A DNA stretch of 64,000 nucleotides from an uncultured Gallionella sp. (lineage in GTDB: Bacteria; Pseudomonadota; Gammaproteobacteria; Burkholderiales; Gallionellaceae): the NCBI GenBank assembly GCA_964608835.1, contig CAZSPN010000008.1:3176-67175 (forward strand), written 5' to 3'. A model generated the notes under the pieces. The model ran no database searches, had not been told where the DNA came from, and saw only the letters and a program-made list of their open reading frames with translations. Positions 12,309-52,146 of the stretch are shown here, one piece after another. Every line of letters starts with the position of its first letter. Within the stretch, counting starts at the first letter, position 1. A program made the translations under genes and the position numbers.

Positions 12309-13208
12309 TTATGCCAATGTCATGCTGGTATTTTGGTTTCTGCGGCGTGTTGCGATAAAGCCGATCAAACCAAAGCCGGACAACATCAAAGCCCACTCAC
12401 CTGGCTCCGGAACAGCAGCCACGGTGTAAGTCAGGTTACCGTTGCTGGCCAATGTCCAAGTCGAAGCACCTGCAGTGTTGCCAAATTGCGCAACAGAAGC
12501 CTTGGCAATAGTTGAAGTGCTGCTTGGTGTCAGATACCAGAAGTTCAAGGATGAACCCACACCTGCCGTGGTATTAAATGTGGACTTGGCAGACCAGTTA
12601 GTACCAAATTGCACAGAGCCTGAATATGCGGTCAGGTTAGGATTATTGCTCGCACCAGCCAATACAGACATTGCACCACTAGGCAGGATCTGGCTTACCG
12701 ACCCGTAGTACGCGCCGGTATTGCCTGAGCCGCCAAACTGATTCAAGTTGGAGTTGGCTTGGGAAGATGACAAGGAGTTAGTAGCACTCTTGATATTCAC
12801 GTTGGTTGTGGACAAATACTGCTGTCCCTTGAAACCTGTACCCACGCTGTCGCCACCTGTCACGTTCCAAATTGTGCTGGCCATGTTTACACCGGACAAA
12901 AAGGAAGTCAGCAAAGTATCTGCTGTAAACGAGGTAGTGCTAGCCATGCCTGAACCTGCTGTCAAAGCTGTTGAGGTACCTGTTACGCCATCGAAGAAAG
13001 ACGATGCAGCAATGCCCAAATCACGTGTGTAAGACACTTGGTTGACGGTATCCCAGATAGACAAAACCAGGTTTGAACCGCTACCTGCCACATTACCCGC
13101 AGCCGTATTGGACAAGCCGGTCATGTCGATGTTTGCAGCGTTTGCCTGACCTGCAACAACCAGGGTCAAAGCAGCAGCCAGCACTGTTTGTTTCAAATTC
13201 AATTTCAT
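12309..13208 (-). CDS. PEP-CTERM sorting-domain protein (Ser/Thr/Asn/Gly-rich cargo)
   Basis: Signal peptide MKLNLKQTVLAAALTLVVAGQANA. C-terminus is AVPEPGEWALMLSGFGLIGFIATRRRNQ, i.e. PEP motif, TM helix and Arg cluster. AAGGAG lies 8 nt before the ATG. Confidence 0.9.
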   Translation of the reverse strand: MKLNLKQTVLAAALTLVVAGQANAANIDMTGLSNTAAGNVAGSGSNLVLSIWDTVNQVSYTRDLGIAASSFFDGVTGTSTALTAGSGMASTTSFTADTLLTSFLSGVNMASTIWNVTGGDSVGTGFKGQQYLSTTNVNIKSATNSLSSSQANSNLNQFGGSGNTGAYYGSVSQILPSGAMSVLAGASNNPNLTAYSGSVQFGTNWSAKSTFNTTAGVGSSLNFWYLTPSSTSTIAKASVAQFGNTAGASTWTLASNGNLTYTVAAVPEPGEWALMLSGFGLIGFIATRRRNQNTSMTLA

Positions 13209-13600: not shown

Positions 13601-13616
13601 TAGTCCGAACGGCTCA
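13601..13616. promoter_or_regulatory. PEP-CTERM box copy (TAGTCCGAACGGCTCA)
   Basis: Matches the 16-bp palindrome family. Lies 392 nt upstream of the 13208 start. Weaker related cores are at 13497-13512 (TAGGCTGTTCGGCTTA) and 13543-13550 (CCGAACGG). Confidence 0.45.
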
Positions 13617-15373: not shown

Positions 15374-16207
15374 CTATTTGGTTTTCAGAATTCCGAGGTC
15401 GATGGCTCTGGCAACCGCGTGTCCCCGCGTTTTTGCATTCAATTTTTTGAGGATATTCTGCACGTGGTTTTTCACTGTCAGCGGGCTGATAAACAGTTCA
15501 TCGGCAATGGTCTGATTGGTTTTACCCACTTTGATGAGGTTGATAATTTGAATTTCGCGCGCGCCCAATGATGCGGTTTCAGATGTATTAACTTCAATCG
15601 GGACGGGCTTGTGTACAACGATGCGGGCGAGTGCCGAGTCAAGAATAGGCAGCAACTCTTCCAGTATGTGGAGCAATCTCGCACTCAACACCTCTGTTAC
15701 ACCGGAGAAGTAAAAATAACTCTTCATCTGACCGTCCGCACTGCATAACCCATGCGCCACGATATTTTCCAATTCATAACGCTTTAGCATGTTTACCCAG
15801 GTGTGATCGAAATCGCCTATCGTTGTTTTCTGGCTGATGATGCAGCCTTTGCCAGATTTTCTGGCCCGATCTATCATTTTCAACAGCAGACTGTCTTCAG
15901 ACTGGCACAACTCTGAAAACTCCTCCTTTTTGAATTGTGGGTTGCTCGAAAAGGTGTAGAACCGTGGATACGGAACTATCTCCGACCAGATGGCGCACAT
16001 CAGTACTTCATGCGGCATCAAATACTGCAACTCGCACTGCGCCCAATTAAAAAACTGTTGCTCATTCGACACGCGTAGCGAACCGTTGACGATGGCAACC
16101 AGCCGATCCTGATCTTCCCCCTCCAGGGTTTTTCGCGCTTCAATAAGATGGTTCATATTATCTGCCCCCATCTTTTGATATGCTGAGGTTGTGTCCGTCA
16201 AAATCAT
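15374..16207 (-). CDS. epsA: LuxR-family transcriptional regulator, EpsA type (XrtB/PEP-CTERM-associated)
   Basis: 277 aa. C-terminal GerE/LuxR HTH (LGAREIQIINLIKVGKTNQTIADELFISPLTVKNHVQNILKKLNAKTRGHAVARAI) with a ~200-aa N-terminal domain. Located inside an XrtB-type locus. Confidence 0.8.
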   Translation of the reverse strand: MILTDTTSAYQKMGADNMNHLIEARKTLEGEDQDRLVAIVNGSLRVSNEQQFFNWAQCELQYLMPHEVLMCAIWSEIVPYPRFYTFSSNPQFKKEEFSELCQSEDSLLLKMIDRARKSGKGCIISQKTTIGDFDHTWVNMLKRYELENIVAHGLCSADGQMKSYFYFSGVTEVLSARLLHILEELLPILDSALARIVVHKPVPIEVNTSETASLGAREIQIINLIKVGKTNQTIADELFISPLTVKNHVQNILKKLNAKTRGHAVARAIDLGILKTK

Positions 16208-16210
16208 TTA

Positions 16211-16972
16211 TCAATTCACCACGCCCAATTTTGCAAGTTGCGCGACGATCATGGGTCTGTCCAAAACTTCCGCCCAATGGAATGGTGTGTATCCATTTAC
16301 CGGGCTGTAAGTATTCGCTCCCGCTTGAATCAGGCGTTGCGCCACATCGTCGTGACCTTCATAGATTGCCCAATAGAGCGGCGTCGTACCCTGACCTTCG
16401 ATCAGATTTACATCCGCACCGTGAGCCAGCAAAGCGTCCACATATTCCAAACGACCCAACTGCGCGGCAAGCACTAACGGTGGCTCACCGCGCTCGCTTC
16501 TCATGTTCACATCCGCACCCGCTTGAAGTAGCAGCTCAACATTTTCATCACGCTGAAAACGTATCGCACTCGCAAGTGGCGTGCCGCCAGAGTCATCCAG
16601 TACATCCAGCCGTGCACCCGCTTTGATGAGCATCTTGAGAACTTCAGTATCACGACGCATTGCTGCTGCACCAATAACGCTGTAACCCAGACTACCTTTG
16701 ACGTTAACGTCCGAACCCAATTCAATCAATCGACGCACCATATCCCGATTGGAGTAATACGAGGCTACCAAAATGGCACTATTCCCCCCCTTGTCCAGCG
16801 CGTTGGGATTGGCTCCAAACTCAAGCATCATCTTGAATATTCTCAGGTCACCCCGTGCCGACGCTTCAATCAAATTGAGATCATCATCTGTTGTCGCCGA
16901 GGCAGATTTAATACCGATACAAAGACTAAAAATCAGTACGCCAAAGGCAGCAAATAATTGCTTAACGTTCAT
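16211..16972 (-). CDS. Secreted ankyrin-repeat protein
   Basis: 253 aa. Signal peptide MNVKQLFAAFGVLIFSLCIGIKSASA. About 6 ankyrin repeats (GGNSAILVASYYSNRDMVRRLIELGSDVN, GGTPLASAIRFQRDENVELLLQAGADVN, GTTPLYWAIYEGHDDVAQRLIQAGAN). Its stop lies 3 nt before the epsA start. Confidence 0.88.
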   Translation of the reverse strand: MNVKQLFAAFGVLIFSLCIGIKSASATTDDDLNLIEASARGDLRIFKMMLEFGANPNALDKGGNSAILVASYYSNRDMVRRLIELGSDVNVKGSLGYSVIGAAAMRRDTEVLKMLIKAGARLDVLDDSGGTPLASAIRFQRDENVELLLQAGADVNMRSERGEPPLVLAAQLGRLEYVDALLAHGADVNLIEGQGTTPLYWAIYEGHDDVAQRLIQAGANTYSPVNGYTPFHWAEVLDRPMIVAQLAKLGVVN

Positions 16973-17198: not shown

Positions 17199-17780
17199 TT
17201 AAGACGCAGAAAATCCCGCATGATGCTTACGACGGTTTGCGATAAACCCAATCAGTCCAAAACCCGCCAGAATCATCGCCCACTCACTCGCTTCCGGAAC
17301 AGCCACGATATTCAATATGCCTGTGTAGCTGCCTCCCGAGGTGCCGGAAATATTTCCAGAAACATGCAAAATATAGTTACCCGCCGTCAGCATAATTGGA
17401 TTGATGATTGCGGACGATGCCGTCCAACCCGCACCATTAAAACTCAACAAATTACTGGTCGCCATCAAAGTCCCGCTCGGTATGCCGCTCACGACATTTG
17501 TTCCGCCATACAAGCTGGTCTGAAGGCTATTGATGCCGAAAATACTTCCCAGGCTAATTGTGGAGGTAATTGAGTCCGTTGAAGCAGCGGGAATACTGAA
17601 CAAGTAATTGTCATTGAACTGCCCAACCGAGTTAGCAAATGTATTGCCAATAGTCAGCTGTGACGGAGGCAACTGATTTCCAAGATTTGTGTCCGCCGCC
17701 CTAACTTGTCCCGAAACGGCAAAAAAAGCCAATATGCCTAGAGCTGCATGTCGCATTAAAGTTGATCGTTCTTTTTTCAT
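17199..17780 (-). CDS. PEP-CTERM sorting-domain protein (paralogue of the N-terminal half of 29707..31086)
   Basis: 193 aa. Signal peptide ...LGILAFFAVSGQVRA. C-terminus AVPEASEWAMILAGFGLIGFIANRRKHHAGFSAS. Confidence 0.9.
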   Translation of the reverse strand: MKKERSTLMRHAALGILAFFAVSGQVRAADTNLGNQLPPSQLTIGNTFANSVGQFNDNYLFSIPAASTDSITSTISLGSIFGINSLQTSLYGGTNVVSGIPSGTLMATSNLLSFNGAGWTASSAIINPIMLTAGNYILHVSGNISGTSGGSYTGILNIVAVPEASEWAMILAGFGLIGFIANRRKHHAGFSAS

Positions 17781-17906: not shown

Positions 17907-17922
17907 TAGTCCGAAAGGACTA
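17907..17922. promoter_or_regulatory. PEP-CTERM box (TAGTCCGAAAGGACTA, perfect 6+6 palindrome)
   Basis: 126 nt separate it from the 17780 start. On the coding-sense strand, CATTAT follows after 21 nt, then ...TGTAGAGTGAC. Confidence 0.55.
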
Positions 17923-19257: not shown

Positions 19258-19809
19258 TCAAGCCGCGCAAGATTTTTCAGTGCGTTTTCGGCGATGGGCA
19301 ACCCATCCAATCAAACTGAAGCCGGTCAACATCAACACCCACTCTTCGGATTCGGGAATCGCGGCAACGTAATAACCATCATCCCACCCGCCCAATCCAT
19401 CCCGAATCTCATCCTCACGCTTATCCTGATGCGGAATCCACTGGTGGTGATCATCTTCAGTTTTCATCTTGCTGAAAATTGTCAAGGGAACCAAATCATT
19501 TTCTCCAACGAACTCACCAAAAAAATCAACTCCCCCATTAACATGTAGAAATTGGTAATTGTTGGTACTAAACACGCTTATCAAAGTTTTATTCGATGCG
19601 TTTTCGTAACCCCATGAATCCGGAATGGTGTATTTTTTATTTTCAATCAACTGGGTCAGCAGATTTTCATAATCATCATTTCCCAGAACGATGAATTTGC
19701 AATTCCCGCAAGACTGCGAAGATGCCATCGCCTGTCCAGACAAGGCTGACAGCATCATCAAGACGTGCAAGATTAAAACGGGTAATTTTAATTTCATAAC
19801 TTTCTCCAA
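19258..19809 (-). CDS. PEP-CTERM sorting-domain protein (acidic/His/Trp-rich pre-signal region)
   Basis: 183 aa. Signal peptide ...LMMLSALSGQAMA. C-terminus AAIPESEEWVLMLTGFSLIGWVAHRRKRTEKSCAA, a variant IPES motif. Confidence 0.85.
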   Translation of the reverse strand: MEKVMKLKLPVLILHVLMMLSALSGQAMASSQSCGNCKFIVLGNDDYENLLTQLIENKKYTIPDSWGYENASNKTLISVFSTNNYQFLHVNGGVDFFGEFVGENDLVPLTIFSKMKTEDDHHQWIPHQDKREDEIRDGLGGWDDGYYVAAIPESEEWVLMLTGFSLIGWVAHRRKRTEKSCAA

Positions 19810-19895: not shown

Positions 19896-19911
19896 TAGTC
19901 CGAACGGATTA
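19896..19911. promoter_or_regulatory. PEP-CTERM box (TAGTCCGAACGGATTA)
   Basis: 86 nt separate it from the 19809 start. CATAAA follows after 17 nt on the coding-sense strand. Confidence 0.55.
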
Positions 19912-20275: not shown

Positions 20276-20914
20276 TCAGGCTGCGAAATTGCGTTTTATA
20301 TTGCGTTTACGACGGTTGGCAGCAAAGCCAATTACACCAAAACCTGCCAGCATTAACGCCCATTCACTCGCTTCAGGAACGGGAGAAACATGATTGTCAT
20401 CATCCCAGTCAGCAAAGTCATCGTCCAGCTCTTCATCATATTCATGATGATCCCAGCGGTTATCAGTCCGACCATCTTTATCCTTAAATACTGTCCTCGG
20501 TTCTATGAACGAACCGCCCCACTGTTGCTGGAGCTTCCGAGCGTCATGTGAATAATATTCATTTTTATTACGCAGAGTTATCAGGTGGTTGCTGCTTTCA
20601 AAAATGCTCTCCAAGTGATTGGGTGAAATGTCTCCGTAGTGAGGTCTCTCTGGAATTTTGTATTTAATTTCGTCACTGAATGAAGGAACCAAATCCCCAT
20701 AGTAGTTCCTCTCTGGAATTCTGTATTCACAATCACCCATTGACCAGCTCTTCTGGGCAAAAGAACAGCTGCCAAAAATTGCATTACCCGAAACGGATTG
20801 AATGCGCACATCACCATCGTGTAATGTCGCTGCTAAGCTTTCCCCCGCTAGTGCAATTAAAGCTGACAAGCCGAGAAACACTCTCAGCATAGAAATTGAT
20901 AATTTTGTATTCAT
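20276..20914 (-). CDS. PEP-CTERM sorting-domain protein (acidic/His/Trp-rich pre-signal region)
   Basis: 212 aa. Signal peptide ...LSALIALAGESLA. C-terminus SPVPEASEWALMLAGFGVIGFAANRRKRNIKRNFAA. Confidence 0.88.
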   Translation of the reverse strand: MNTKLSISMLRVFLGLSALIALAGESLAATLHDGDVRIQSVSGNAIFGSCSFAQKSWSMGDCEYRIPERNYYGDLVPSFSDEIKYKIPERPHYGDISPNHLESIFESSNHLITLRNKNEYYSHDARKLQQQWGGSFIEPRTVFKDKDGRTDNRWDHHEYDEELDDDFADWDDDNHVSPVPEASEWALMLAGFGVIGFAANRRKRNIKRNFAA

Positions 20915-21014: not shown

Positions 21015-21030
21015 TAGTCCGAACAGACTA
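21015..21030. promoter_or_regulatory. PEP-CTERM box (TAGTCCGAACAGACTA)
   Basis: 100 nt separate it from the 20914 start. CATAAT follows after 15 nt on the coding-sense strand. Confidence 0.55.
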
Positions 21031-21074: not shown

Positions 21075-21935
21075 TTATTCGTGATGATGACTCAACAACG
21101 GATCAACCAGCAAACCATACGAAGATTGTGATGCGAGTAAGGAATGATGAGGTATCTGATGCTCCGCTTGTTGAGTGATGTCCACATTTTGCAAAGCGTT
21201 GGCAATGGCATCTTGTGCGGCCCTTGCCAATACGCGGCGGTTTTCTGTGGCAGCCGACAGTGCTGGCGTGAAAACCACCAACGCATTAAGTTGTGAACAG
21301 CGCAGTAATTGCCAGATAGACTGTATCAGAGTCATATCACCAATGAATGATGCCTCACTGCTGTGTTCACCCGCTTCATTTTGGTAATACAGTGCGACAG
21401 GGCATATCTTCATTCTTGCATCAATAGCGGGCTGAATAAGTGCGGAATGGAAATGCCCCACCTGCTTACCATCGGTTGTTGTGCCTTCAGGGAAAAGCCC
21501 GACACTCACACCCTGACCCAGTAACAAACTCAACCGCAAATTGATCGTCGCAGCATTCTGGCGCAACGCCCGCTCTATAAAGACAGTCCCCGTACGTTGG
21601 CTCAACCAACCGATAATAGGCCAATCACGCACTTCCGATTTGGCTATAAAGCGCGACGGGTGAATCGCATTCAACACAAAAATATCCAACCATGAAACAT
21701 GATTGGCAACAACCAAATAGCCGCCCTCGCCTCTTATGGGCTGTCGCCCTTCAATTTGAACGCCAATATTGAAGATGGTGAGCAGTTGCCTGCTCCAATT
21801 CTTTAGGATGCCGAGTTGTCTCTTAGAATTCAAATGAGGATAAACAATTGCCAGCAGAATTCCATTAACCAGATGTACGGCAAGGCGTACTCCGCGAAAT
21901 ACGCTCAGCAATGGGTGCGCCGGAAAGTTATTCAT
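21075..21935 (-). CDS. Lysophospholipid (1-acyl-sn-glycerol-3-phosphate-type) acyltransferase, PlsC family
   Basis: 286 aa. HX4D motif in VVANHVSWLDIFVL, plus FPEGTTTDG. Its start overlaps the upstream GGDEF gene stop by 4 nt. Confidence 0.8.
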   Translation of the reverse strand: MNNFPAHPLLSVFRGVRLAVHLVNGILLAIVYPHLNSKRQLGILKNWSRQLLTIFNIGVQIEGRQPIRGEGGYLVVANHVSWLDIFVLNAIHPSRFIAKSEVRDWPIIGWLSQRTGTVFIERALRQNAATINLRLSLLLGQGVSVGLFPEGTTTDGKQVGHFHSALIQPAIDARMKICPVALYYQNEAGEHSSEASFIGDMTLIQSIWQLLRCSQLNALVVFTPALSAATENRRVLARAAQDAIANALQNVDITQQAEHQIPHHSLLASQSSYGLLVDPLLSHHHE

Positions 21936-23017
21936 ATTGAATCCGCACCTCCTTCTTGAGGGAGCTGATTCAACCCCGGTAATAATGTGCGGCGGCGTTC
22001 TATAAACAGGCTATTCCCCGGTTTTTTCTTGGCCATGTCCTTGGCAATTGAAACTGCTTCTGCAACTTCGTAGTGAGAACCAAATAACTTCGGGGTAATC
22101 CACACCGCACCGATAGAAAGGGTGGGGAGGGGATAATGGACAAGACGACCTTGCCGATCCTCCATCATGTATCCACCGATGGCACGGTGTTCTTTGTCAA
22201 ATAAGGTTGCCGATGTTTTCGCGAATATCGTGAGAGCCTGGCTGCAACGCTGCTCCCAATCTTCGCTTTGCAATACAAAAATAAATTCATCTCCCACTAT
22301 ATGCCCGACAAAATCTTGCTTTGGGTCGCTCACGCCATTCAGCAATTCACCGACAAACTTAATCAGCTGATCCCCTTTGCTATACCCATACGCATCGTTA
22401 AACGATTTGAAATGATCCAAATCGGCATTACATACCGCAAATGAACTTCCAGCCTGGAGAAGATTCTCTATGCATTCATTGATAGATGATTTATCAGACA
22501 AGCACATCAAAGGATCGGCATCATTTTTATTTCCAGCCAACGTGCTGGTTATTTCACGTAACAAATCCTGTCCTGTAGCCAGCCCAATATATTGACCCTG
22601 ATCGATGATAATGAAGCCATCTGTAAAATGGCTGGGATTAGATGCACTCAAAATGTTGGTGAGTTCTTCGATAGCCGTGGATTTTTCTACTACCAATGGG
22701 TGTGCATCCATCGCATCGGTACAATGTTGCTTACCCAATAATTCACGATGGATAGATTGAGAAAATTTATCCACTAACTCATAACGGTGAATCAATCCCA
22801 GTGGACTGCCTTCTTTAGTCACGGGGATAGAACGCAAATTTTGATTGGCGGAAAATAAGGCAACGATTTCTTCAATCTCTGTTTCTGGCTTAACAGGTTC
22901 AACGTAACGCAAGATTTTTTCAACGGTCACATTGCCTGCCGTAGTGTGCGATTGCTGAACAAGTGACTTCATCGTAAACACTCTATGAATAACATAGGGT
23001 GTCAGAATACGACTCAA
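21932..23017 (-). CDS. CBS-pair + GGDEF-domain protein with a degenerate signature (VGDEF)
   Basis: 361 aa; the track start is TTG, and ATG 22972 (MKSLVQQ...) is plausible. Tandem CBS-like region. GGDEF-domain context ADLDHFKSFNDAYGYSKGD...GHIVGDEFIFVL. The signature codons at 22283-22297 read V-G-D-E-F. Confidence 0.75.
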   Translation of the reverse strand: MSRILTPYVIHRVFTMKSLVQQSHTTAGNVTVEKILRYVEPVKPETEIEEIVALFSANQNLRSIPVTKEGSPLGLIHRYELVDKFSQSIHRELLGKQHCTDAMDAHPLVVEKSTAIEELTNILSASNPSHFTDGFIIIDQGQYIGLATGQDLLREITSTLAGNKNDADPLMCLSDKSSINECIENLLQAGSSFAVCNADLDHFKSFNDAYGYSKGDQLIKFVGELLNGVSDPKQDFVGHIVGDEFIFVLQSEDWEQRCSQALTIFAKTSATLFDKEHRAIGGYMMEDRQGRLVHYPLPTLSIGAVWITPKLFGSHYEVAEAVSIAKDMAKKKPGNSLFIERRRTLLPGLNQLPQEGGADSI

Positions 23018-25080: not shown

Positions 25081-26493
25081 ATGACGACTCAATTCAAAAC
25101 ACCCACTTCATTCCGCCGCTCCACTTCTCTTACGATAGAACGGTCAGGGCTATTAAATCTGGTGGAAGCTTTTCTTGATCCGCTGACTATCATTTTTTCT
25201 TTGTTTGCCTTGGTGCTGTTCAAAGAATCTGAATTAACGCCACCGTACTTGATTCTTTCGTTGTTGATATTTGCCATCAGCTTTCCAGGCGAAGCTCAAC
25301 TCAACATGCCGATGTTAAGCAAAATCCGGCACATTTATTTTGACTGGGCAATCAAAGTAGGCTTGCTCGCTTTCTTTGGCTATGCCAGCCGTTACCTGGA
25401 ATTTTTTGATTTTGATATTTTATTGACATGGTTGTGGCTGGCACCTACCAGTCAGGTAGCCACCCACATTCTGGCGCGTAAAGTCGCACCCGCTATTTTG
25501 AAAATTCAGGGGGAGACTCGCTATGCCATCATTGCCGGTATAACCGAGCAAAGCGTTGAACTCGCCTTACGTTTCAAGGATGACCCTTATTCAAACACTC
25601 ACATCTTGGGGTTTTTTGATGATAGAACCGAAGAACGGGTAGAGCACGATCTTTTATGCAGGAAGCTGGGAACACTGAATGACCTCCCCAGATTCGTCAA
25701 TGAAAATAAAGTGCCACTAATCTACCTGTCACTCCCCATGAGTACCCAGCCGCGTATTCTGTCGTTGTTGGACAAGCTGCGCGATACCACCGCCTCGATT
25801 TATTTTGTACCCGATATTTTTGTCACCGACTTGATTCAAGGTCGGCTAAGCACCGCTGCCGGTTTGCCCGTTGTTGCGGTATGCGAATCTCCATTCACCG
25901 GGTTTAATGGGGTCATTAAACGCATCAGTGATATTGTCTTATCCACCTTAATTCTATGCCTCATTATGCCCATCATGCTGGTAATTGCGATAGGCGTAAA
26001 GTTTAGCTCGCCTGGGCCTGTCATATTCAAGCAAAGACGCTATGGTCTGGATGGAAGAGATATTGTCGTTTATAAGTTCCGTTCCATGACCGTGTGCGAC
26101 GATGGCGATAAAATCCAGCAAGCGCAAAAATCCGACCGTCGTATCACACCATTGGGTGCTTTCCTGCGCAAAACCTCTTTGGACGAACTGCCCCAGTTCA
26201 TCAATGTTATGCAGGGCAGAATGAGTATCGTCGGCCCGCGTCCACACGCCGTTTCCCACAACGAAGAATACCGTAAGCTCATCAAAGGCTACATGGTGAG
26301 ACACAAAGTTAAACCAGGCATCACGGGTTGGGCACAAGTAAACGGTTACCGTGGTGAAACAGAAGTTTTGGATAAAATGGCTAAGCGTATCGATCACGAT
26401 CTGGAATACCTCAGAAACTGGTCGTTACGGCTCGATCTTTACATCATCATTAAAACTGCCCTAGTTGTGCTCAAAGACCGCCATGCCTATTAG
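25081..26493 (+). CDS. epsB: Polyprenyl-phosphate hexose-1-phosphate (priming) transferase, EpsB/WcaJ type
   Basis: 470 aa. N-terminal TM helices and a C-terminal bacterial sugar-transferase domain (PGPVIFKQRRYGLDGRDIVVYKFRSM, DELPQFINVMQGRMSIVGPRP, KPGITGWAQVNG). Confidence 0.85.
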   Translation: MTTQFKTPTSFRRSTSLTIERSGLLNLVEAFLDPLTIIFSLFALVLFKESELTPPYLILSLLIFAISFPGEAQLNMPMLSKIRHIYFDWAIKVGLLAFFGYASRYLEFFDFDILLTWLWLAPTSQVATHILARKVAPAILKIQGETRYAIIAGITEQSVELALRFKDDPYSNTHILGFFDDRTEERVEHDLLCRKLGTLNDLPRFVNENKVPLIYLSLPMSTQPRILSLLDKLRDTTASIYFVPDIFVTDLIQGRLSTAAGLPVVAVCESPFTGFNGVIKRISDIVLSTLILCLIMPIMLVIAIGVKFSSPGPVIFKQRRYGLDGRDIVVYKFRSMTVCDDGDKIQQAQKSDRRITPLGAFLRKTSLDELPQFINVMQGRMSIVGPRPHAVSHNEEYRKLIKGYMVRHKVKPGITGWAQVNGYRGETEVLDKMAKRIDHDLEYLRNWSLRLDLYIIIKTALVVLKDRHAY

Positions 26494-26552: not shown

Positions 26553-27242
26553 ATGAAAACACTGCGCACTTATCTTGATGAACACCCTGCATTACCCAGG
26601 GTGCTTCCTTTTGTTCTGTACATCATTTTTCTCGCGTTTGAAGATGTCATCAAGAGTGTCTCCTCACTTGGCCAATTTGATACGCGCCTGATTTATCCAT
26701 GCAAAGTAGCATGTGTTGCGCTGTTGCTGGTTTACTTCTGGCACTTCTACGCAGAGCTTGCAAAGTTCAAATTACGATTGCATGAGGTATCGTGGAGTCT
26801 GGCTGTAGGTGTGGGCGTTTTTCTACTCTGGATTAACTTGGATTACTCATGGATGAGTTTTGGACAATCCACTGGTTACGATCCGCGCAACCTGGCGGGT
26901 GAAATTGATTGGTCATTAGCACTGTCTCGCTTGCTGGGAGCCGCTGTCGTCGTCCCGATTATGGAAGAGCTATTTTGGCGTTCATTTTTATTGCGTTGGC
27001 TGGCACATTCAAAATTTCTCAATGTATCCCCTGCACAAGTTGGGCTACGAGCATTATTGATAAGCTCTGTGATGTTCGGCATGGAACATGCCTTATGGCT
27101 GGCAGGCATTATTGCTGGATTCGCCTATAGCTGGCTGTATATGAAAAGCAAAAATCTGTGGAGCTCTGTCGTCGCGCACGCCACCACCAATGGCTTGCTT
27201 GGACTTTGGGTGCTGTACACAGGGCAGTGGCATTTCTGGTAA
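26553..27242 (+). CDS. CPBP (CAAX) family intramembrane glutamic endopeptidase, PEP-CTERM-locus associated
   Basis: 229 aa, polytopic. Motifs EExxxR (PIMEELFWRSF), FxxxH (MFGMEHALW) and HxxxN (VVAHATTNGL). Confidence 0.85.
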   Translation: MKTLRTYLDEHPALPRVLPFVLYIIFLAFEDVIKSVSSLGQFDTRLIYPCKVACVALLLVYFWHFYAELAKFKLRLHEVSWSLAVGVGVFLLWINLDYSWMSFGQSTGYDPRNLAGEIDWSLALSRLLGAAVVVPIMEELFWRSFLLRWLAHSKFLNVSPAQVGLRALLISSVMFGMEHALWLAGIIAGFAYSWLYMKSKNLWSSVVAHATTNGLLGLWVLYTGQWHFW

Positions 27243-29706: not shown

Positions 29707-31086
29707 TTATCGGGCAGCCACTTCACCAACATTCGAAGCATTACCCCAAAAATTCCCCAGCAATTGCATAGCTGCGCCAATAACAAAAATGGTATTAGTC
29801 ACAAAATACCGTTTCCACAAACGGCGGGGTTCGGAACATAAGCGGTGCAACCACTCCAAACCATTGCGCTGCATCCACAAGGGTGCACGTTGCACCGTAC
29901 CTGCGTGATAATCAAAAGCGGCTCCCACTCCAATCATCACAGCATGGATACGGTTACGATGTGCTGCCATCCACTTTTCCTGCTTGGGACAGCCCAAACC
30001 TACAAACACAACACCCGCACCTGAAGCGTTAATGGATGTAACAGTTGCTTCGTCTTCAGCTTCGCTCAATACCCGAAATGGTGGCGAATATATTCCACCA
30101 ATTTGTAGGTTTGGAAATGCTGCACGCAATTTCGTGGAGAGCAACTGCAATGTTTCGTCAGTGCTACCATAGAAATATACAATCTCACCACCGCGCTCTG
30201 CCTGAGCGCAGTATTTCCACATCAAGTCTGGACCATTGATACGCTCCTGGCCATGGAATCCCTGTTCGCGCAACATCCACGCAACCGGCATCCCGTCCGG
30301 GGTGGCCATATCTGCTTGATTAACCACCCTCCTGAATTCCCCGTCCTGACTAGCCGTTACAACAGAATGCACATTGCAAATGCAAACATATCGTGACTCG
30401 CGTGCCTGAGACCAAATGGTGATACGTGCAAGTGTTTCGCTCCACGAAAACGCATTGATAAAAGTATCCATTACTTTTGCGCCATCTCGCTTTATCCTAT
30501 ATTCCTCCACCGCATATCCCCTGCGGCGAGCGGCAATGAAACCCATCATGCCCAAGCCCAAAACCAGCATTGCCCATTCTGCAATTTCAGGTACAGGAGA
30601 AATCACAGGAGAAATATTTAATGTTCCCGCATAACTCCCTCCAAATGTGCCAACCACATTCCCCGTAACCGATAAAATATAGTCTCCAGAATTCAAAGTT
30701 GTCGGGTTGATCACCGCAACTGTGCTATTGAAACCGTTTCCCGTATCAGAAAATATGCTACTTGTGGCAAGTAGCATTCCTCCGGGCATACCTGAATTGA
30801 TTGATGTCCCACTGTACAACCTGGTTTCCAAGCTGTTGATGCCAAATACACTTCCCAAGCGGATAGTCGAAGTAATGGAGTTAGCTGATGACGCGGGAAT
30901 ACTGAATAAATAATTATCGTAGAACTGCCCGGAGGGTGAATTAAAAACATTACCAACACTTAGAGTGGACGGTGCTGATTGGGTACCCAAGTTAACAGAA
31001 ACCGCCATTGCCGATTCAGAAACCGCAAGCAAGACAAACGATCCAAGTAATACCCGTTGTATTAAAACTAATAATCTAGGACGCAT
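29707..31086 (-). CDS. Fusion ORF: PEP-CTERM cargo protein (aa 1-~195) + WecB/TagA/CpsF (GT26) glycosyltransferase (aa 206-459)
   Basis: N-terminus has a signal peptide plus a domain colinear with 17199..17780. Sorting signal SPVPEIAEWAMLVLGLGMMGFIAARRR (nt 30594-30520). A 16-aa linker follows, then Met206 (ATG 30471-30469). GT26 motifs: ATPDGMPVAWMLR, VVFVGLGCPKQEKWM, GVGAAFDYHAGTVQRAP, GLEWLHRLCSEPRRLWKRY. Confidence 0.8.
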   Translation of the reverse strand: MRPRLLVLIQRVLLGSFVLLAVSESAMAVSVNLGTQSAPSTLSVGNVFNSPSGQFYDNYLFSIPASSANSITSTIRLGSVFGINSLETRLYSGTSINSGMPGGMLLATSSIFSDTGNGFNSTVAVINPTTLNSGDYILSVTGNVVGTFGGSYAGTLNISPVISPVPEIAEWAMLVLGLGMMGFIAARRRGYAVEEYRIKRDGAKVMDTFINAFSWSETLARITIWSQARESRYVCICNVHSVVTASQDGEFRRVVNQADMATPDGMPVAWMLREQGFHGQERINGPDLMWKYCAQAERGGEIVYFYGSTDETLQLLSTKLRAAFPNLQIGGIYSPPFRVLSEAEDEATVTSINASGAGVVFVGLGCPKQEKWMAAHRNRIHAVMIGVGAAFDYHAGTVQRAPLWMQRNGLEWLHRLCSEPRRLWKRYFVTNTIFVIGAAMQLLGNFWGNASNVGEVAAR

Positions 31087-31190
31087 AGTTTTCTCCAGTT
31101 AATCGACGTGCCAAAAAATTGACTCAAGCAATTTGTGGTCACTCTACTGACTGAATATGAAAATATTTGCAGTGCTAGTAACTGTTGGAT

Positions 31191-31206
31191 TAGTCCGAAC
31201 AGCCTA
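31191..31206. promoter_or_regulatory. PEP-CTERM box (TAGTCCGAACAGCCTA), proximal copy
   Basis: 104 nt separate it from the 31086 start. Followed on the sense strand after 31 nt by CATATTCAGTCAGTAGAGTGAC. Confidence 0.55.
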
Positions 31207-31306
31207 TTTCACGCAACCAAATTATTAATTTTGGTTTTATCAATTTCAGCGTTCAGTACTGTACTAACTGAATGTGAATTTTTTGTGTGGGGAAATGTGA
31301 AACAGG

Positions 31307-31322
31307 TAGTCCGAACGGACTA
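31307..31322. promoter_or_regulatory. PEP-CTERM box (TAGTCCGAACGGACTA, perfect palindrome), distal copy
   Basis: 220 nt separate it from the 31086 start. Followed on the sense strand after 30 nt by CACATTCAGTTAGTACAGTAC, i.e. a duplicated promoter module. Confidence 0.5.
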
Positions 31323-31657
31323 CAGAACAGCTTCGTTGAAGAAGTGGAATAAGGTTTTTTCATTCACCTTGTGGAGTTCTAGATAGAGTTACAGCGAAGC
31401 TTTCGGCTCAGGCGGGATGCCCCAACCAGGCACCTTACACACCACCATCCGAACCCTGATGTGCAAAAGTACCCAAAGCGCGGTCGGCTAATTCCAGACT
31501 TACAGGTAAACTATTGCCAATAATTTTTTGAATCCCGCACATCGTTTAACTTCGCCATGTTCGGGCATATTCAAAGAAAACCATCAGCAATTGAATGAGC
31601 GGACGAGTTTAATAGGCGATTATTACAAAAAGGTTTCAATTGCATGGCAAACGGGTG

Positions 31658-50584: not shown

Positions 50585-51277
50585 CTAATTTTCAAAATTT
50601 CCTGCAATGCGCAAACGATCTTCCTTGCTCATCGCTGCCAACATTTCTTTAACAAAATTATCTTGGATGCGATAAGCCTCTTTGTCATCAGCATTGATTG
50701 ATGAAACGCGCACCAGCATTCCATCCGGGACTTTCCCAGTTAATCCGTAGCGCAATTGCGCTATTTTTTGCTGCATTCCTTTCAAGGCAACCGCTTTATC
50801 ACCCACCGTAATCCAGTAGGTAATCGGCTCATTGCGATTCCCCTGGGTTGCGAATAAACGTTTGATTGGCAATGCACCAAATGCAGTGGAAAGCATATCC
50901 AACCTGTCTCTTTCCACTTGAAAACCCTGCGCCGTGTAGCAAATTTCCGGACGATGAACTTGCAATCCATCGCTCTGATTTCCACCGTAGGCTATCGATA
51001 ACATAATGCGGGTTCCGTGCTTATCAAGGTATGCCCTAGATAAGGTTTGCGCGTATAGCTCAGCGAGTAAGACTTTTCTTTCCGGACTGATAATTTGTTC
51101 CAAAACCACCGGATCCAAATGCCACTCACCAAACTGACTCGGAATCATTTTTTCAAGGTTAACGGCCGGCATGGAGTCCGCAAGTTTTTTTGTTGGCTTC
51201 AAATAGGTTGCCGATGCGGATGCAAAGATCATCAATAAGCCGACAAACAAAGCCTGCTTGTTTGCCCCCATTATCAT
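50585..51277 (-). CDS. epsI: EpsI-family protein (exosortase accessory)
   Basis: 230 aa with a single N-terminal TM/signal segment. Overlaps the exosortase gene stop by 4 nt, the standard XrtB-EpsI arrangement. Confidence 0.8.
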   Translation of the reverse strand: MIMGANKQALFVGLLMIFASASATYLKPTKKLADSMPAVNLEKMIPSQFGEWHLDPVVLEQIISPERKVLLAELYAQTLSRAYLDKHGTRIMLSIAYGGNQSDGLQVHRPEICYTAQGFQVERDRLDMLSTAFGALPIKRLFATQGNRNEPITYWITVGDKAVALKGMQQKIAQLRYGLTGKVPDGMLVRVSSINADDKEAYRIQDNFVKEMLAAMSKEDRLRIAGNFEN

Positions 51278-52146
51278 TTGCTTTTCACCTGTTGAGGCGA
51301 GAGAACAAAATGGCTCGCCCCATCCAGAACAAGAAACGCGCTGAGTGCGACCATGAAAAGTACTATCCCCGCCATGTTGTGAGCAAAGCCTTGACCCACT
51401 TCATCTCCGAAATAATAGGTGATCAACACCAAAATAATGACGCGCAGTACGTTTGCAAAAAAGGCGATTGGAATAATGCTGGCCAATAGAATGGTGTTGT
51501 GCACCCAGCTCGAACGTCCCACAAAATACGCATAAAACATTCCCAATGCACTCAGGCTAAACATAGAGTTCAACCCCGAACAGGCATCTGCCACCAGCAG
51601 TTGGTATTGACCTATCGAGAGCATGACCCCGCTTCTGGCGACCGGATAATCGAACCAGTACAAAATATTTTCGGCCAGAATGGAAACCTGTTGTTTGAGG
51701 GAACCGGTCAGGGTATCAATCACAAAACCCGGTAACGGTATCAGGAATACGAGGAACAACAATGGAAACCAAAAATGCTTTGCAACACTTGAACCAAAAA
51801 CCAACAACATGACACCCAGGAGTAATGGTATCTGTGCACCCACTTCAAAAAGATATATTTCCTGCGAACGTCCAACGATGTATAGAATCAGACCGATGAT
51901 CAGCAAGATCAGGCCGCTGATGGGATTTTTTTTCTGCCCATCGTCACGGAGTTTTAATCTTCCTTGCCAAATTAACCACAGCACAACAGCAAGCACAATT
52001 GGACCATGCGCATACTCTTCACTTGTCCATAAAGTGAACGCGATAGACTTGTAGGTGGGAACAATCAGCAGCAGCAGCCCAAACAAAGCAGGCCACCAAG
52101 ATACCCACAGTGAATCCGCCGATTTGAGCTTTAAGATATTCAACAT
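51274..52146 (-). CDS. xrtB: Exosortase (short, XrtB-like; EpsH)
   Basis: 290 aa, ~8 TM segments. Conserved exosortase residues in context: LLVADACSGLNSMF (Cys), FFANVLRVI (Arg), GFAHNMAG (His). The XrtB subtype is inferred from the separate epsI plus the epsA/epsL/epsD-G neighbours. Confidence 0.85.
   Translation of the reverse strand: MLNILKLKSADSLWVSWWPALFGLLLLIVPTYKSIAFTLWTSEEYAHGPIVLAVVLWLIWQGRLKLRDDGQKKNPISGLILLIIGLILYIVGRSQEIYLFEVGAQIPLLLGVMLLVFGSSVAKHFWFPLLFLVFLIPLPGFVIDTLTGSLKQQVSILAENILYWFDYPVARSGVMLSIGQYQLLVADACSGLNSMFSLSALGMFYAYFVGRSSWVHNTILLASIIPIAFFANVLRVIILVLITYYFGDEVGQGFAHNMAGIVLFMVALSAFLVLDGASHFVLSPQQVKSK

What the first reader, a model, noticed from the sequence alone, without database searches (positions are those of the whole stretch)
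29707..31086. A complete PEP-CTERM cargo protein fused, through its sorting signal, to a complete GT26 glycosyltransferase
Seen in sequence:
- Residues 1-~195 form a full exosortase substrate. There is a signal peptide, then a domain colinear with the stand-alone PEP-CTERM protein at 17199..17780 (GQFYDNYLFSIPASSANSITSTIRLGSVFGINSLE versus GQFNDNYLFSIPAASTDSITSTISLGSIFGINSLQ). The sorting signal VPEIAEWAMLVLGLGMMGFIAARRR (nt 30594-30520) follows.
- In the paralogue the ORF stops 8 codons after the basic cluster (RRKHHAGFSAS*). Here it runs on for 16 codons (GYAVEEYRIKRDGAKV) into Met206 and a full-length 254-aa WecB/TagA/CpsF domain.
- No Shine-Dalgarno-like sequence precedes Met206 (CGAGATGGCGCAAAAGTA-ATG).

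Established knowledge: PEP-CTERM signals are described as extreme C-terminal tripartite signals (PEP motif, TM helix, basic cluster) that exosortase is thought to cleave and remove.

Inference: the topology is self-consistent. The cargo would be outside, the helix N-out/C-in, and the basic cluster and GT domain cytoplasmic. Exosortase cleavage at VPE could therefore release the cargo and leave a membrane-anchored glycosyltransferase, coupling cargo export 1:1 to an EPS-synthesis enzyme. Alternatively the PEP-CTERM helix may serve as an uncleaved anchor. I am not aware that this architecture has been described.
Basis: partly seen in the sequence, partly recalled or inferred. Interest (0 to 1): 0.8.

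Follow-up and report, generated by a model that had tools for sequence, protein, structure and literature searches.

The report
Exosortase cargo fused to a glycosyltransferase
One gene in a slime-polysaccharide gene cluster joins a complete exported protein, including its normally C-terminal sorting tag, to a cytoplasmic sugar-transferring enzyme; the fusion is conserved in a small group of Gallionellaceae-like bacteria and could serve as a natural reporter for the still-unproven cutting activity of exosortases.

Summary
ORF 29707..31086(-) encodes 459 aa. These are a signal peptide, a full FxDxF-family PEP-CTERM module (motif, helix, RRR), a variable ~10-aa linker and a complete GT26 (WecB/TagA/CpsF) enzyme with the TagA catalytic residues.

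It is not a sequencing error. About 30 distinct proteins (57-92% identity) have the same architecture. They come from metagenomes, MAGs, a 3.14-Mb MAG chromosome and Sideroxydans sp. CL21.

The family is one young clade, with a single representative at 50% clustering. About 76 other species have the GT alone. One lineage (L093/L094) has the two halves as adjacent separate genes, so the fusion joined neighbouring genes.

The exported domain, the sorting signal and the GT are under purifying selection. The linker drifts freely but always stays in frame. Met206 is not conserved. A possible internal start (GTG193 with an SD) exists in the window but not in all orthologues.

The gene lies in a complete XrtB locus and carries the palindrome found upstream of the window's four stand-alone PEP-CTERM genes.

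The closest precedent is Haloferax HVO_0405, a strain-specific fusion with a central sorting signal that archaeosortase cleaves. Cleavage here is inferred, not shown. I rate it a new variant of a known kind, of moderate interest.

The parts
29707..31086 (-). Whole fusion gene, 459 codons plus stop
   Evidence: conserved full-length orthologues
31003..31086 (-). Signal peptide, residues 1-28 (MRPRLLVLIQRVLLGSFVLLAVSESAMA|V)
   Evidence: Hydrophobic window 3-31 and an AXA site read from the sequence. Helix 3-21 in the model. dN/dS about 0.47.
30607..31002 (-). FxDxF beta-sandwich cargo domain, residues 29-160
   Evidence: NF038126 match. 52% identity to paralogue. All-beta in the AF2 model at pLDDT about 70-80. 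dN/dS about 0.24.
30520..30606 (-). PEP-CTERM sorting signal, now internal: residues 161-189, with motif (I)SPVPExAEW, helix 168-186 and RRR 187-189
   Evidence: V165, P166, E167, A169, W171, G177 and R187 are 89-100% conserved. dN/dS about 0.31.
30490..30519 (-). Linker, residues 190-199: variable in sequence and in length (0 to +7 codons) among orthologues, always in frame
   Evidence: (dN/dS about 1.1)
29710..30489 (-). GT26 / GT-E glycosyltransferase (WecB/TagA/CpsF), residues 200-459, including the C-terminal membrane-binding and catalytic appendage
   Evidence: PF03808 and TIGR00696. TagA structures 7MPK, 5WB4. Catalytic residues conserved. dN/dS about 0.08.
30508..30522 (-). Candidate internal start: AGGGGA (30522-30517), 6-nt spacer, GTG codon 193 (30510-30508). 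It aligns to within one residue of the start codon of stand-alone GT orthologues.
   Evidence: Not conserved in L008, L012, L013.
31091..31096 (-). Shine-Dalgarno GGAGAA of the fusion gene
   Evidence: dG -6.4; the same element is present in L001, L006 and L008 and as CGGAGA in L011, while L012 has CTGGTG (dG -2.8) and L013 GGGAGG (dG -11.6)
31191..31322 (-). Upstream regulatory region with two copies of the palindrome TAGTCCGTTCGGACTA (31307-31322, 0 mismatches; 31191-31206, 2 mismatches)
17199..17780 (-). Stand-alone FxDxF PEP-CTERM paralogue, 193 aa, normal terminal signal, same palindrome upstream at 17907-17922
50585..52146 (-). Exosortase B (XrtB, 51274..52146) and EpsI B-type (50585..51277), the presumed processing enzyme
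   Evidence: TIGR03113 at 341 bits (cutoff 275); NF045609 at 287 bits (cutoff 220).
26553..27242 (+). PEP-CTERM-associated CAAX prenyl-protease-related protein
   Evidence: TIGR03008, 245 bits, cutoff 81
25081..26493 (+). WcaJ-type undecaprenyl-phosphate glucose phosphotransferase, the priming enzyme whose lipid-linked product the GT26 could extend
   Evidence: TIGR03023, 504 bits. The link to the GT26 is inference.
15374..16207 (-). XrtB/PEP-CTERM-associated LuxR-type regulator EpsA, a candidate binder of the palindrome
   Evidence: TIGR03020, 196.5 bits, cutoff 170. Binding is inference.

Best explanation
This is a real, evolutionarily maintained fusion of two formerly adjacent genes of an XrtB exopolysaccharide locus: an FxDxF-family PEP-CTERM cargo gene and the locus's only GT26 glycosyltransferase gene.

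Shown: the stop codon and spacer between them were lost, so a single 459-aa polypeptide is encoded.

Inferred from sequence: the signal peptide takes the beta-sandwich domain across the inner membrane. The PEP-CTERM helix (168-186) then acts as a stop-transfer segment, and the RRR cluster, linker and GT stay in the cytoplasm. That is where GT26 enzymes work on undecaprenyl-diphosphate-linked acceptors.

Inferred by analogy with ArtA and HVO_0405: XrtB recognises the still-conserved SPVPExAEW signature at the outer face of the membrane and cuts there. This sends the FxDxF domain along the normal PEP-CTERM route. What remains is a roughly 290-residue glycosyltransferase with a new N-terminal transmembrane anchor, in addition to its own C-terminal amphipathic appendage.

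Consequences of the fusion:
- The GT comes under the palindrome-bearing regulatory region typical of the PEP-CTERM genes here.
- The GT is delivered co-translationally to the membrane.
- The GT is made in fixed stoichiometry with the cargo.
For: 1. Not an artefact. There are about 30 distinct fused proteins of 419-481 aa at 57-92% identity. They include WP_283743522.1 of Sideroxydans sp. CL21 (3.77-Mb contig), a 3.14-Mb MAG chromosome and Gallionellaceae MAGs.

2. Origin from neighbouring genes. L093 and L094 (independent samples) carry a separate 184-aa FxDxF PEP-CTERM gene that is 43% identical to the N-half. A 141-nt spacer and a stand-alone GT follow it.

3. Both halves are under selection, and so is the reading frame. 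dN/dS is about 0.24 for the cargo, 0.31 for the signal and 0.08 for the GT. The linker is about 1.1 with four length states, yet it never has a stop or frameshift.

4. The signature motif, not the helix core, is the best-conserved part of the junction. E167 and W171 are 100% conserved, V165 96%, P166 and A169 89%.

5. L008, L012 and L013 have no credible internal start before the GT. The fused gene is the only GT26 in the 64-kb locus. The strongly conserved GT must therefore work as part of, or derived from, the fusion polypeptide.

6. The GT looks active. D264, N238, R282, Q369/E370 and R415/R422/R426 match TagA D65, N39, R83, Q167/E168 and R214/R221/R224.

7. XrtB, EpsI-B and the CAAX protease are in the window.

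8. The palindrome TAGTCCGTTCGGACTA lies 97-106 nt upstream of every fused gene, 159 nt upstream of the split-state cargo gene, and upstream of the window's four other PEP-CTERM genes. It is absent upstream of GT-only orthologues.

9. Precedent: ArtA, a homologue of exosortases, cleaves HVO_0405 at a central PGF signal followed by a NifU domain (PMC7157517, PMC6098224).

10. GT26 enzymes are active only when membrane-associated (PMC6493773, PMC9804384). Other GT26 proteins carry N-terminal multi-TM fusions, so tethering is plausible.
Against: - No experimental data bear on cleavage. Exosortase proteolysis itself has little direct evidence: it was 'not yet experimentally analyzed' in 2018 (PMC6098224) and information was 'scarce' in 2024 (PMC10957091).
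- Haft et al. 2006 suggested that PEP-CTERM signals with long tails may be non-functional.
- Generic PEP-CTERM models score the signal weakly. NF035944 gives 18.8 bits against a cutoff of 35, and Pfam PF07589 gives no hit.
- HVO_0405 is strain-specific and its uncleaved form is unstable, so the analogy is to an accident of evolution rather than to a designed system.
- In the GT tree, unfused GTs (P0037, P0039-42, P0044) nest among the fused ones with weak support. The fusion is therefore dispensable and may have been reversed or gained more than once.
- The window, L006 and L011 have SD-plus-start candidates in the linker, so some GT may be made independently.
- dS is near saturation, so the dN/dS values are rough.
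Confidence: 0.55

Rival explanations
1. Uncleaved bitopic enzyme. The former sorting helix now serves only as a permanent transmembrane anchor. The protein works intact, with a periplasmic beta-sandwich (possibly glycan-binding) domain wired to a cytoplasmic GT26, for example to position the enzyme at the EPS assembly site or to sense periplasmic polymer.
For: The topology is equally consistent. GT26 enzymes need membrane association (PMC6493773, PMC9804384), and other GT26 proteins have N-terminal TM fusions. The beta-domain weakly resembles binding-module sandwiches such as C-CPE and CBM6. The generic PEP-CTERM HMM scores are weak.
Against: The VPExAEW signature is more conserved than the helix core, which a mere anchor would not require. 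The same motif occurs in four terminal PEP-CTERM proteins of the window. XrtB is present, and nothing in the sequence suggests how the signal would escape it. ArtA cleaves the analogous central signal (PMC7157517).
Confidence: 0.2
2. Tolerated, near-neutral fusion. The GT is still made mainly by internal initiation at the old start site (GTG193 in the window). The read-through fusion product is a minor by-product that exosortase or quality control simply removes. The fusion persists only because it does no harm.
For: Window GTG193 has an SD as strong as the gene's own and sits at the ancestral GT start position. L006 and L011 have similar Met-plus-SD sites. The linker evolves neutrally. Unfused and split relatives exist within or near the clade, so the fusion is not essential. 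Uncleaved HVO_0405 is unstable (PMC7157517).
Against: L008, L012 and L013 lack any credible internal start, yet their GTs are intact and conserved. Several independent linker indels are all in frame, and no stop has appeared in about 30 sequences. That is unexpected if the frame were irrelevant. There is an ascertainment caveat, because broken versions would be scored as split. Ribosomes starting at the strong upstream site must read into the GT in any case.
Confidence: 0.2
3. Sequencing or assembly artefact: a missed stop codon or frameshift between two separate genes in this window.
For: One relative (L090) does show a frameshift, but it lies inside the N-domain and on a contig with other split genes.
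Against: The same open frame is found in about 30 distinct sequences from many samples, technologies and assemblies, including Sideroxydans sp. CL21 and a closed MAG chromosome.
Confidence: 0.01

Closest known systems
Haloferax volcanii HVO_0405, an ArtA (archaeosortase A) substrate with a central PGF tripartite signal (Abdul Halim et al. 2017, J Bacteriol 199:e00802-16; described in PMC7157517 and PMC6098224)
   Same: Both arose by fusion of a sorting-signal cargo gene with the downstream adjacent gene. In both, the tripartite signal (motif, helix, basic cluster) ends up in the middle and a cytoplasmic domain follows. The processing enzyme family (archaeosortase/exosortase) is homologous. ArtA-dependent cleavage at the central site was shown experimentally.
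   Different: HVO_0405 is archaeal, a Tat substrate, has a PGF motif and carries a NifU-domain partner. It is described as strain-specific, and its uncleaved form is unstable. The present case is bacterial, Sec-type and PEP/XrtB. Its partner is an enzyme of the same EPS pathway. It is conserved across a clade down to 57% identity, with both halves under purifying selection. Cleavage is not shown here.
Canonical PEP-CTERM / exosortase substrates, FxDxF family (NF038126; Haft et al. 2006, PMC1569441)
   Same: It has a signal peptide, an FxDxF domain, a VPExxEW motif, a helix and a basic cluster. It sits in an exosortase B locus and has its own upstream regulatory region, like the four stand-alone PEP-CTERM genes in the window.
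   Different: The signal is 270 residues from the C-terminus. In Haft 2006 the median is 3 further residues and 87% have fewer than 10, and long-tail cases were suspected to be non-functional. RefSeq names the Sideroxydans orthologue simply 'FxDxF family PEP-CTERM protein', ignoring the GT.
GT26 / GT-E glycosyltransferases TagA/TarA and WecG (PMC6493773, PMC8784642, PMC9804384)
   Same: The fold and catalytic constellation match: Asp base, Asn, Arg, Gln-Glu and three appendage arginines. The C-terminal helices that mediate peripheral membrane binding are present. The context is a lipid-linked glycan pathway.
   Different: TagA Thr37, which positions ManNAc, is Ile236 here, so the donor sugar is probably different. 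Known members are peripheral membrane proteins without a TM segment. This one would be covalently tethered by an N-terminal helix derived from a sorting signal.
Other N-terminally extended GT26 proteins (multi-TM plus GT26; tandem GT26) seen in the representative search
   Same: They show that GT26 domains tolerate, and often carry, N-terminal membrane-embedded extensions or duplications.
   Different: None of the 150 best representatives has a signal peptide, a PEP motif, a single helix and a basic cluster in front of the GT.

Membership tests
PEP-CTERM exosortase substrate (FxDxF family, NF038126) | Family HMM match above the curated cutoff, covering the sorting region | tested here: met
   NF038126 at 87.7 bits (cutoff 50), residues 21-188, model positions 8-165 of 165
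PEP-CTERM exosortase substrate | N-terminal signal peptide | tested here: met
   Basic n-region, hydrophobic stretch 3-31 and AMA|V site. This is a simple hydropathy reading, not a dedicated predictor.
PEP-CTERM exosortase substrate | Tripartite signal: PEP-type motif abutting a TM helix, followed by a basic cluster | tested here: met
   SPVPEIAEW, helix 168-186 (Kyte-Doolittle mean 1.83) and RRR 187-189. The motif is 89-100% conserved in 27 orthologues. The third position of 'PEP' is I/A/V rather than P, as in the window's other PEP-CTERM proteins.
PEP-CTERM exosortase substrate | Generic sorting-domain HMM (Pfam PF07589 / NF035944) above cutoff | tested here: not met
   PF07589 gives no hit at E<=0.1. 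NF035944 gives 18.8 bits against a cutoff of 35. The stand-alone paralogue is itself borderline (20.9 against 20.7; 27.5 against 35).
PEP-CTERM exosortase substrate | Signal located at the extreme C-terminus (median 3 further residues, 87% with fewer than 10; Haft 2006) | tested here: not met
   270 residues follow the basic cluster
PEP-CTERM exosortase substrate | Exosortase encoded in the same genome | tested here: met
   XrtB 51274..52146(-), EpsI-B 50585..51277(-), and pepcterm_CAAX 26553..27242(+)
PEP-CTERM exosortase substrate | Exosortase-dependent cleavage and removal of the signal | not testable with these tools
   Needs protein-level experiments. Only the archaeal analogue has been shown (PMC7157517).
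GT26 / WecB-TagA-CpsF glycosyltransferase (GT-E fold) | Family HMMs above cutoff | tested here: met
   PF03808 at 213 bits (cutoff 27.4); TIGR00696 at 185 bits (cutoff 69)
GT26 / WecB-TagA-CpsF glycosyltransferase (GT-E fold) | Catalytic residues defined in TagA (Asp65 base, Asn39, Arg83, Gln167/Glu168, Arg214/221/224; Thr37) | tested here: met
   D264, N238, R282, Q369/E370 and R415/R422/R426 align and are invariant in the fused family. Thr37 is replaced by Ile236.
GT26 / WecB-TagA-CpsF glycosyltransferase (GT-E fold) | Fold similarity to solved TagA | tested here: met
   Foldseek against 5WB4, 5WFG, 7N41 and 7MPK gives E about 1e-9 and TM(target) 0.60-0.65. The model is of modest confidence (pLDDT 58).
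Specific GT26 equivalogs (EpsA NF041872, WecG NF002980, TarA NF041710) | Score above the equivalog cutoff | tested here: not met
   134 against 500, 107 against 323 and 99 against 350 bits. Donor and acceptor specificity therefore remain unknown.
Central-signal sortase-type substrate of the HVO_0405 kind | Arose by fusion of a cargo gene with the adjacent downstream gene | tested here: met
   Split state in L093/L094, and shared synteny of fused and unfused loci

The most novel reading that the evidence does not exclude
The fusion is a pro-enzyme checkpoint. The GT26 would become competent, as a membrane-bound monomer placed next to the XrtB/EPS machinery, only after or through engagement and cleavage of its own PEP-CTERM signal by exosortase. 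Synthesis of the lipid-linked repeat unit would then be licensed by, and stoichiometrically tied to, export of a matrix protein. This would be a post-translational coupling of protein sorting to polysaccharide synthesis, something long suspected for exosortase systems but never demonstrated.
Probability: 0.12. Interest if true: 0.8.

Novelty: new variant of a known kind. Interest (0 to 1): 0.55.

Why it matters
Exosortases are widespread in environmental, biofilm-forming and floc-forming bacteria, but their proteolytic or transpeptidase activity has barely been tested. One reason is that the fragment removed from a normal substrate is only about 25 residues long and hard to detect. In Haloferax, the accidental fusion HVO_0405 became the standard reporter for archaeosortase cleavage precisely because its C-terminal fragment is large.

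This family offers the same tool for a bacterial exosortase (XrtB). It is a natural substrate whose two cleavage products would be about 14 kDa and about 31 kDa. One orthologue is in a cultured isolate, Sideroxydans sp. CL21.

It is also a 'Rosetta-stone' link between a PEP-CTERM cargo family of unknown role (FxDxF) and a defined step of EPS repeat-unit synthesis.

Finally, it shows that a long tail after a PEP-CTERM signal need not mean a dead signal. Annotation pipelines currently name these proteins after one half only.

Tried and rejected
- **Sequencing artefact:** rejected by about 30 concordant orthologues.
- **Met206 as the GT start:** rejected as a conserved feature. It is Ile, Leu or Val in 25 of 27 orthologues and has a weak SD.
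- **Sigma-54 / PrsR motif of Haft 2006 upstream of the gene:** the TGGCAC-like string at 31113-31108 lies too close to the start codon, is not conserved in orthologues, and does not match the described motif 1 ending TTTACA. The conserved element is instead a 16-nt palindrome.
- **Independent PEP-CTERM-GT26 fusions elsewhere:** none among the 150 best representatives of an exhaustive profile search.
- **FxDxF modules fused to other domains:** the N-half search returned only 8 stand-alone proteins of about 193 aa. The index has low sensitivity, so this is not conclusive.
- **PEP-CTERM remnants upstream of close unfused GTs (L004, L091, L092):** none found. The 'NGFVERRK' N-terminus of P0039 is probably chance similarity.
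- **Omics evidence for the Sideroxydans CL21 orthologue:** nothing in the supplements held for PMC12442390.
- **The 2017 HVO_0405 paper (PMC5350275):** not held. Its content is cited through PMC7157517 and PMC6098224.
- **Structure prediction:** it gave only a modest model (pLDDT 58). The beta-domain's similarity to C-CPE/CBM-like sandwiches is therefore treated as weak.
- **GT-domain NJ tree:** deep nodes are poorly supported (the fused MRCA has support 6 of 100). The number of gains and losses of the fusion cannot be stated.
Full report
**1. What is there**

The ORF 29707..31086 on the minus strand is open for 459 codons.
- NCBIfam's FxDxF-family PEP-CTERM model (NF038126) matches residues 21-188 from model position 8 to the last position, 165. 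The score is 87.7 bits against a cutoff of 50.
- Pfam PF03808 (E 2e-63) and TIGR00696 match residues ~254-430.
- The N-half is 52% identical over residues 1-192 to the stand-alone PEP-CTERM gene 17199..17780(-).
- A simple hydropathy scan finds exactly two hydrophobic segments: the signal peptide (3-31, ending AMA|V) and residues 168-186 (IAEWAMLVLGLGMMGFIAA). The second is preceded by SPVPE and followed by RRR.

**2. Is it an artefact? No**

A search with the full-length protein found about 30 distinct clusters of 419-481 aa. They cover 91-100% of the query at 57-92% identity.

In the alignment, every one has the cargo domain, the VPE motif, the helix, the basic cluster, a short linker and the GT in one frame.

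Their sources include:
- groundwater and other metagenomes from several studies;
- WP_283743522.1 of the isolate Sideroxydans sp. CL21, on a 3.77-Mb contig;
- a 3.14-Mb MAG chromosome;
- Gallionellaceae MAGs.

I re-derived the open frame from DNA for L001-L003 and L006-L013. One relative, L090, has a single frameshift inside the N-domain. That contig also has another gene split in two, so it is probably a long-read error.

**3. How widespread, and how did it arise?**

The family is one clade.
- An exhaustive profile search of 1.84 billion representatives (50% clusters) gave a single fused representative at 803 bits. The next hit scored 449 bits. None of the other 149 best hits has a PEP motif, helix and basic cluster before the GT.
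- Among the 80 best loci from one genome per GTDB species, four are fused. All four are Gallionellaceae or unclassified beta/gammaproteobacterial MAGs. The other 76 have a stand-alone GT with nothing comparable in frame upstream. These include Thiobacillus, Rhodocyclaceae, Methylophilaceae, Sulfuriferula and some Gallionella.
- Synteny is shared between fused and unfused loci. The common pattern is GT4, sometimes AsnB, then the GT, then GalE and GalU, with Bac_transf, GerE and DsbC further on.

L093 and L094, from independent samples, show the split state:
- a separate 184-aa FxDxF PEP-CTERM gene, 43% identical to the window's N-half, ending ...VRRKKNNENAMIGMCGV*;
- then 141 nt of spacer;
- then a stand-alone GT starting MSTSEVSKTYRQGTEVID.

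So the fusion joined two neighbouring genes by loss of the stop codon and spacer.

In a neighbour-joining tree of the GT domain, the fused proteins form one group. A few unfused GTs nest inside it and P0034, P0035 and P0038 are sister to it. Support is weak, so I cannot count gains and losses.

**4. Selection**

I computed dN/dS on seven distinct fused coding sequences. dS is close to saturation, so the numbers are rough.

| Region | Residues | dN/dS |
|---|---|---|
| Signal peptide | 1-28 | ~0.47 |
| FxDxF domain | 29-160 | ~0.24 |
| PEP-CTERM signal | 161-189 | ~0.31 |
| Linker | 190-199 | ~1.1 |
| GT | 200-445 | ~0.08 |

The linker also varies in length, with 0, +3, +5 or +7 codons among these seven. 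It is always in frame and never contains a stop.

Within the junction, the best-conserved positions are those of the signature motif and the start of the basic cluster: V165 96%, P166 89%, E167 100%, A169 89%, W171 100%, G177 100% and R187 100%. The helix core merely stays hydrophobic.

This pattern is what one expects if the cargo is made and used, if the sorting signal is still read by an enzyme, and if the frame linking it to the GT matters. One caveat is ascertainment: broken versions would have been classed as split or GT-only.

**5. The start of the GT**

Stand-alone orthologues begin about 13 residues before the window's Met206 (for example MKSVTNRDGAKVID and MNSGINREGAKVID). R(D/E)GAKV(I/M)D is therefore the GT's own N-terminus. 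Met206 is Ile, Leu or Val in 25 of 27 fused proteins and has a poor SD (dG -3.7).

The window does have an in-frame GTG at codon 193 (30510-30508).
- It aligns to within one residue of the stand-alone start.
- It is preceded at 6 nt by AGGGGA, formed by the R189-G190 codons.
- Its dG of -6.5 matches the -6.4 of the gene's own SD. Only 5% of start-like codons inside the GT reach -6.

L006 and L011 have comparable Met-plus-SD sites. L008, L012 and L013 have none. Internal initiation is therefore possible in some lineages but is not a conserved property of the family. In the lineages without it, the highly conserved GT can only come from the fusion polypeptide. The fused gene is also the only GT26 in the 64-kb locus.

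**6. The enzyme half**

It matches solved TagA/TarA structures by sequence (7MPK E 1e-39 with the family profile) and by fold (E ~1e-9, TM 0.60-0.65 on the target).

The residues that Kattke et al. identified in TagA align with invariant residues of the fused family:

| TagA | Window |
|---|---|
| Asp65 (base) | D264 |
| Asn39 | N238 |
| Arg83 | R282 |
| Gln167/Glu168 | Q369/E370 |
| Arg214/221/224 (appendage) | R415/R422/R426 |

Thr37, proposed to position ManNAc, is Ile236 here. The specific equivalog models (EpsA, WecG, TarA) are far below their cutoffs. The donor sugar is therefore probably not ManNAc(A). From context I infer that the enzyme extends the Und-PP-glucose made by the WcaJ-type primer at 25081..26493.

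TagA and WecG are peripheral membrane proteins that are active only at the membrane, through their C-terminal helices (PMC6493773, PMC9804384). Those helices are retained here.

**7. The surroundings**

The window holds a complete XrtB-type EPS locus:
- EpsL, EpsD, EpsE, EpsF, EpsG, XrtB (51274..52146) and EpsI-B;
- GDP-sugar genes, Wzx, several GTs and modifying enzymes;
- then the fusion gene, GalE and GalU;
- divergently, the CAAX-protease-related protein, WcaJ and a TIGR03790 protein.

Downstream lie four ordinary PEP-CTERM genes, at 12309..13208, 17199..17780, 19258..19809 and 20276..20914. All have the same [AV]PExxEW motif and end 8-11 residues after the basic cluster. The XrtB-associated LuxR-type regulator EpsA is at 15374..16207.

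A 16-nt palindrome, TAGTCCGTTCGGACTA, marks these genes.
- It lies upstream of each of the four PEP-CTERM genes and, in two copies, upstream of the fusion gene. That is six sites, giving 10 strand-specific matches against 0.23 expected.
- It is conserved, with at most two mismatches, 97-106 nt upstream of every fused orthologue and 159 nt upstream of the separate cargo gene in the split loci.
- It is not found directly upstream of the GT in any GT-only locus: 75 of the 76 scan loci have none, L091 and L092 have none, and L004's only hit is about 3.1 kb upstream.

The fusion therefore moved the GT under a PEP-CTERM-type control region. The element differs from the motif-1 / sigma-54 arrangement of Haft 2006. 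That EpsA binds it is my inference.

**8. Mechanism: what is shown and what is inferred**

Shown:
- One polypeptide is encoded.
- Both halves and the signal are conserved.
- The topology signals are those of a type-I membrane protein with the GT inside.
- The exosortase machinery is present.

Inferred: XrtB cuts at the VPE signature. This would release the FxDxF domain to the usual PEP-CTERM pathway and leave a helix-anchored GT26. The inference rests on three things:
- the motif's conservation;
- the identical motifs of the terminal PEP-CTERM proteins next door;
- the archaeal precedent, HVO_0405.

[quoted passage not shown] ArtA cleaves it at its central PGF signal (PMC6098224, PMC7157517).

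I put cleavage at somewhat better than even. The main rivals are an uncleaved bitopic enzyme and a tolerated fusion with the GT made partly from an internal start. The AF2 model (pLDDT 58) shows the expected beads-on-a-string layout: a signal helix, a beta-sandwich at 29-160, one long helix from 167, and a GT-E domain. It adds little beyond that.

**9. Comparison with what is known, and novelty**

Haft et al. [quoted passage not shown] I found no paper describing a PEP-CTERM signal followed by an enzyme domain, or this combination. Public annotation names these proteins after one half only.

The principle has one published archaeal example, which is strain-specific and whose uncleaved form is unstable. 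Here the fusion is bacterial and clade-conserved, and it links two components of the same EPS pathway. I therefore rate it a new variant of a known kind.

Its main value is practical. It is a natural large-fragment reporter for exosortase cleavage, and a Rosetta-stone link between FxDxF cargo and a GT26 step. I give it an interest score of 0.55.

Noticed in passing
window 31307-31322, 31191-31206, 21015-21030, 19896-19911, 17907-17922, 13601-13616; also L001, L006, L008, L011-L013, L090, L093, L094: The 16-nt palindrome TAGTCCGTTCGGACTA lies about 85-160 nt upstream of three of the window's stand-alone PEP-CTERM genes and of the fusion gene's proximal copy. A 3-mismatch copy lies about 390 nt upstream of 12309..13208. 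In total there are six sites (10 strand-specific matches) against 0.23 expected. It is conserved (0-2 mismatches) upstream of all fused orthologues. It differs from the sigma-54/PrsR motifs of Haft 2006. It may be the operator of the XrtB-associated LuxR-type regulator EpsA (15374..16207).
   Followed up: partly
window 31323-31542: Remnants of an exosortase-locus asparagine-synthase-like gene (AsnB). They match residues 1-46 and 146-188 of the 628-aa protein of L001. About 1.9 kb present in the 92%-identical relative L001 (and in L008) is deleted here, leaving the 570-bp gap between the GT4 gene and the fusion gene.
   Followed up: partly
window 30592-30615 (-): A window-specific in-frame tandem duplication of 12 nt (ATTTCTCCTGTG/ATTTCTCCTGTA) gives ISPV-ISPV immediately before the PE of the sorting motif. 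It is absent from all 26 other fused orthologues, including the 92%-identical P0002.
   Followed up: no
L093 3305-4855; L094 1834-3384: This is the split state of the same gene pair: a separate 184-aa FxDxF PEP-CTERM gene, a 141-nt spacer and a stand-alone GT26. It is either the ancestral arrangement or a reversal of the fusion.
   Followed up: yes
P0189, P0195, P0196, P0203, P0214, P0222, P0233, P0243, P0245, P0248, P0258 (about 480-530 aa); P0134, P0136, P0140-P0144 (about 500-560 aa): Other GT26 architectures appear in the representative library. One group has an N-terminal block of 3-5 predicted TM helices followed by GT26. The other consists of apparent tandem GT26 duplications. They were not characterised further.
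   Followed up: no
window 21075-23017 (-): An OlsA-like lyso-lipid acyltransferase (21075..21935) and a GGDEF protein (21932..23017) sit directly next to the PEP-CTERM gene cluster. Acyl-amino-acid lipid synthases have been reported to be linked to exosortase systems (Craig et al. 2011, cited in PMC4886054).
   Followed up: no
window 16211-16972 (-): An ankyrin-repeat protein is encoded immediately upstream of the EpsA regulator. The equivalent position in relatives (L004, L006) holds an unannotated protein of about 253 aa next to a GerE-family gene and DsbC.
   Followed up: no
L090 3628-5062: This is a fused orthologue with one frameshift inside the FxDxF domain, on a contig where an NTP-transferase gene is also split. 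It is probably a long-read assembly error rather than a pseudogene.
   Followed up: partly
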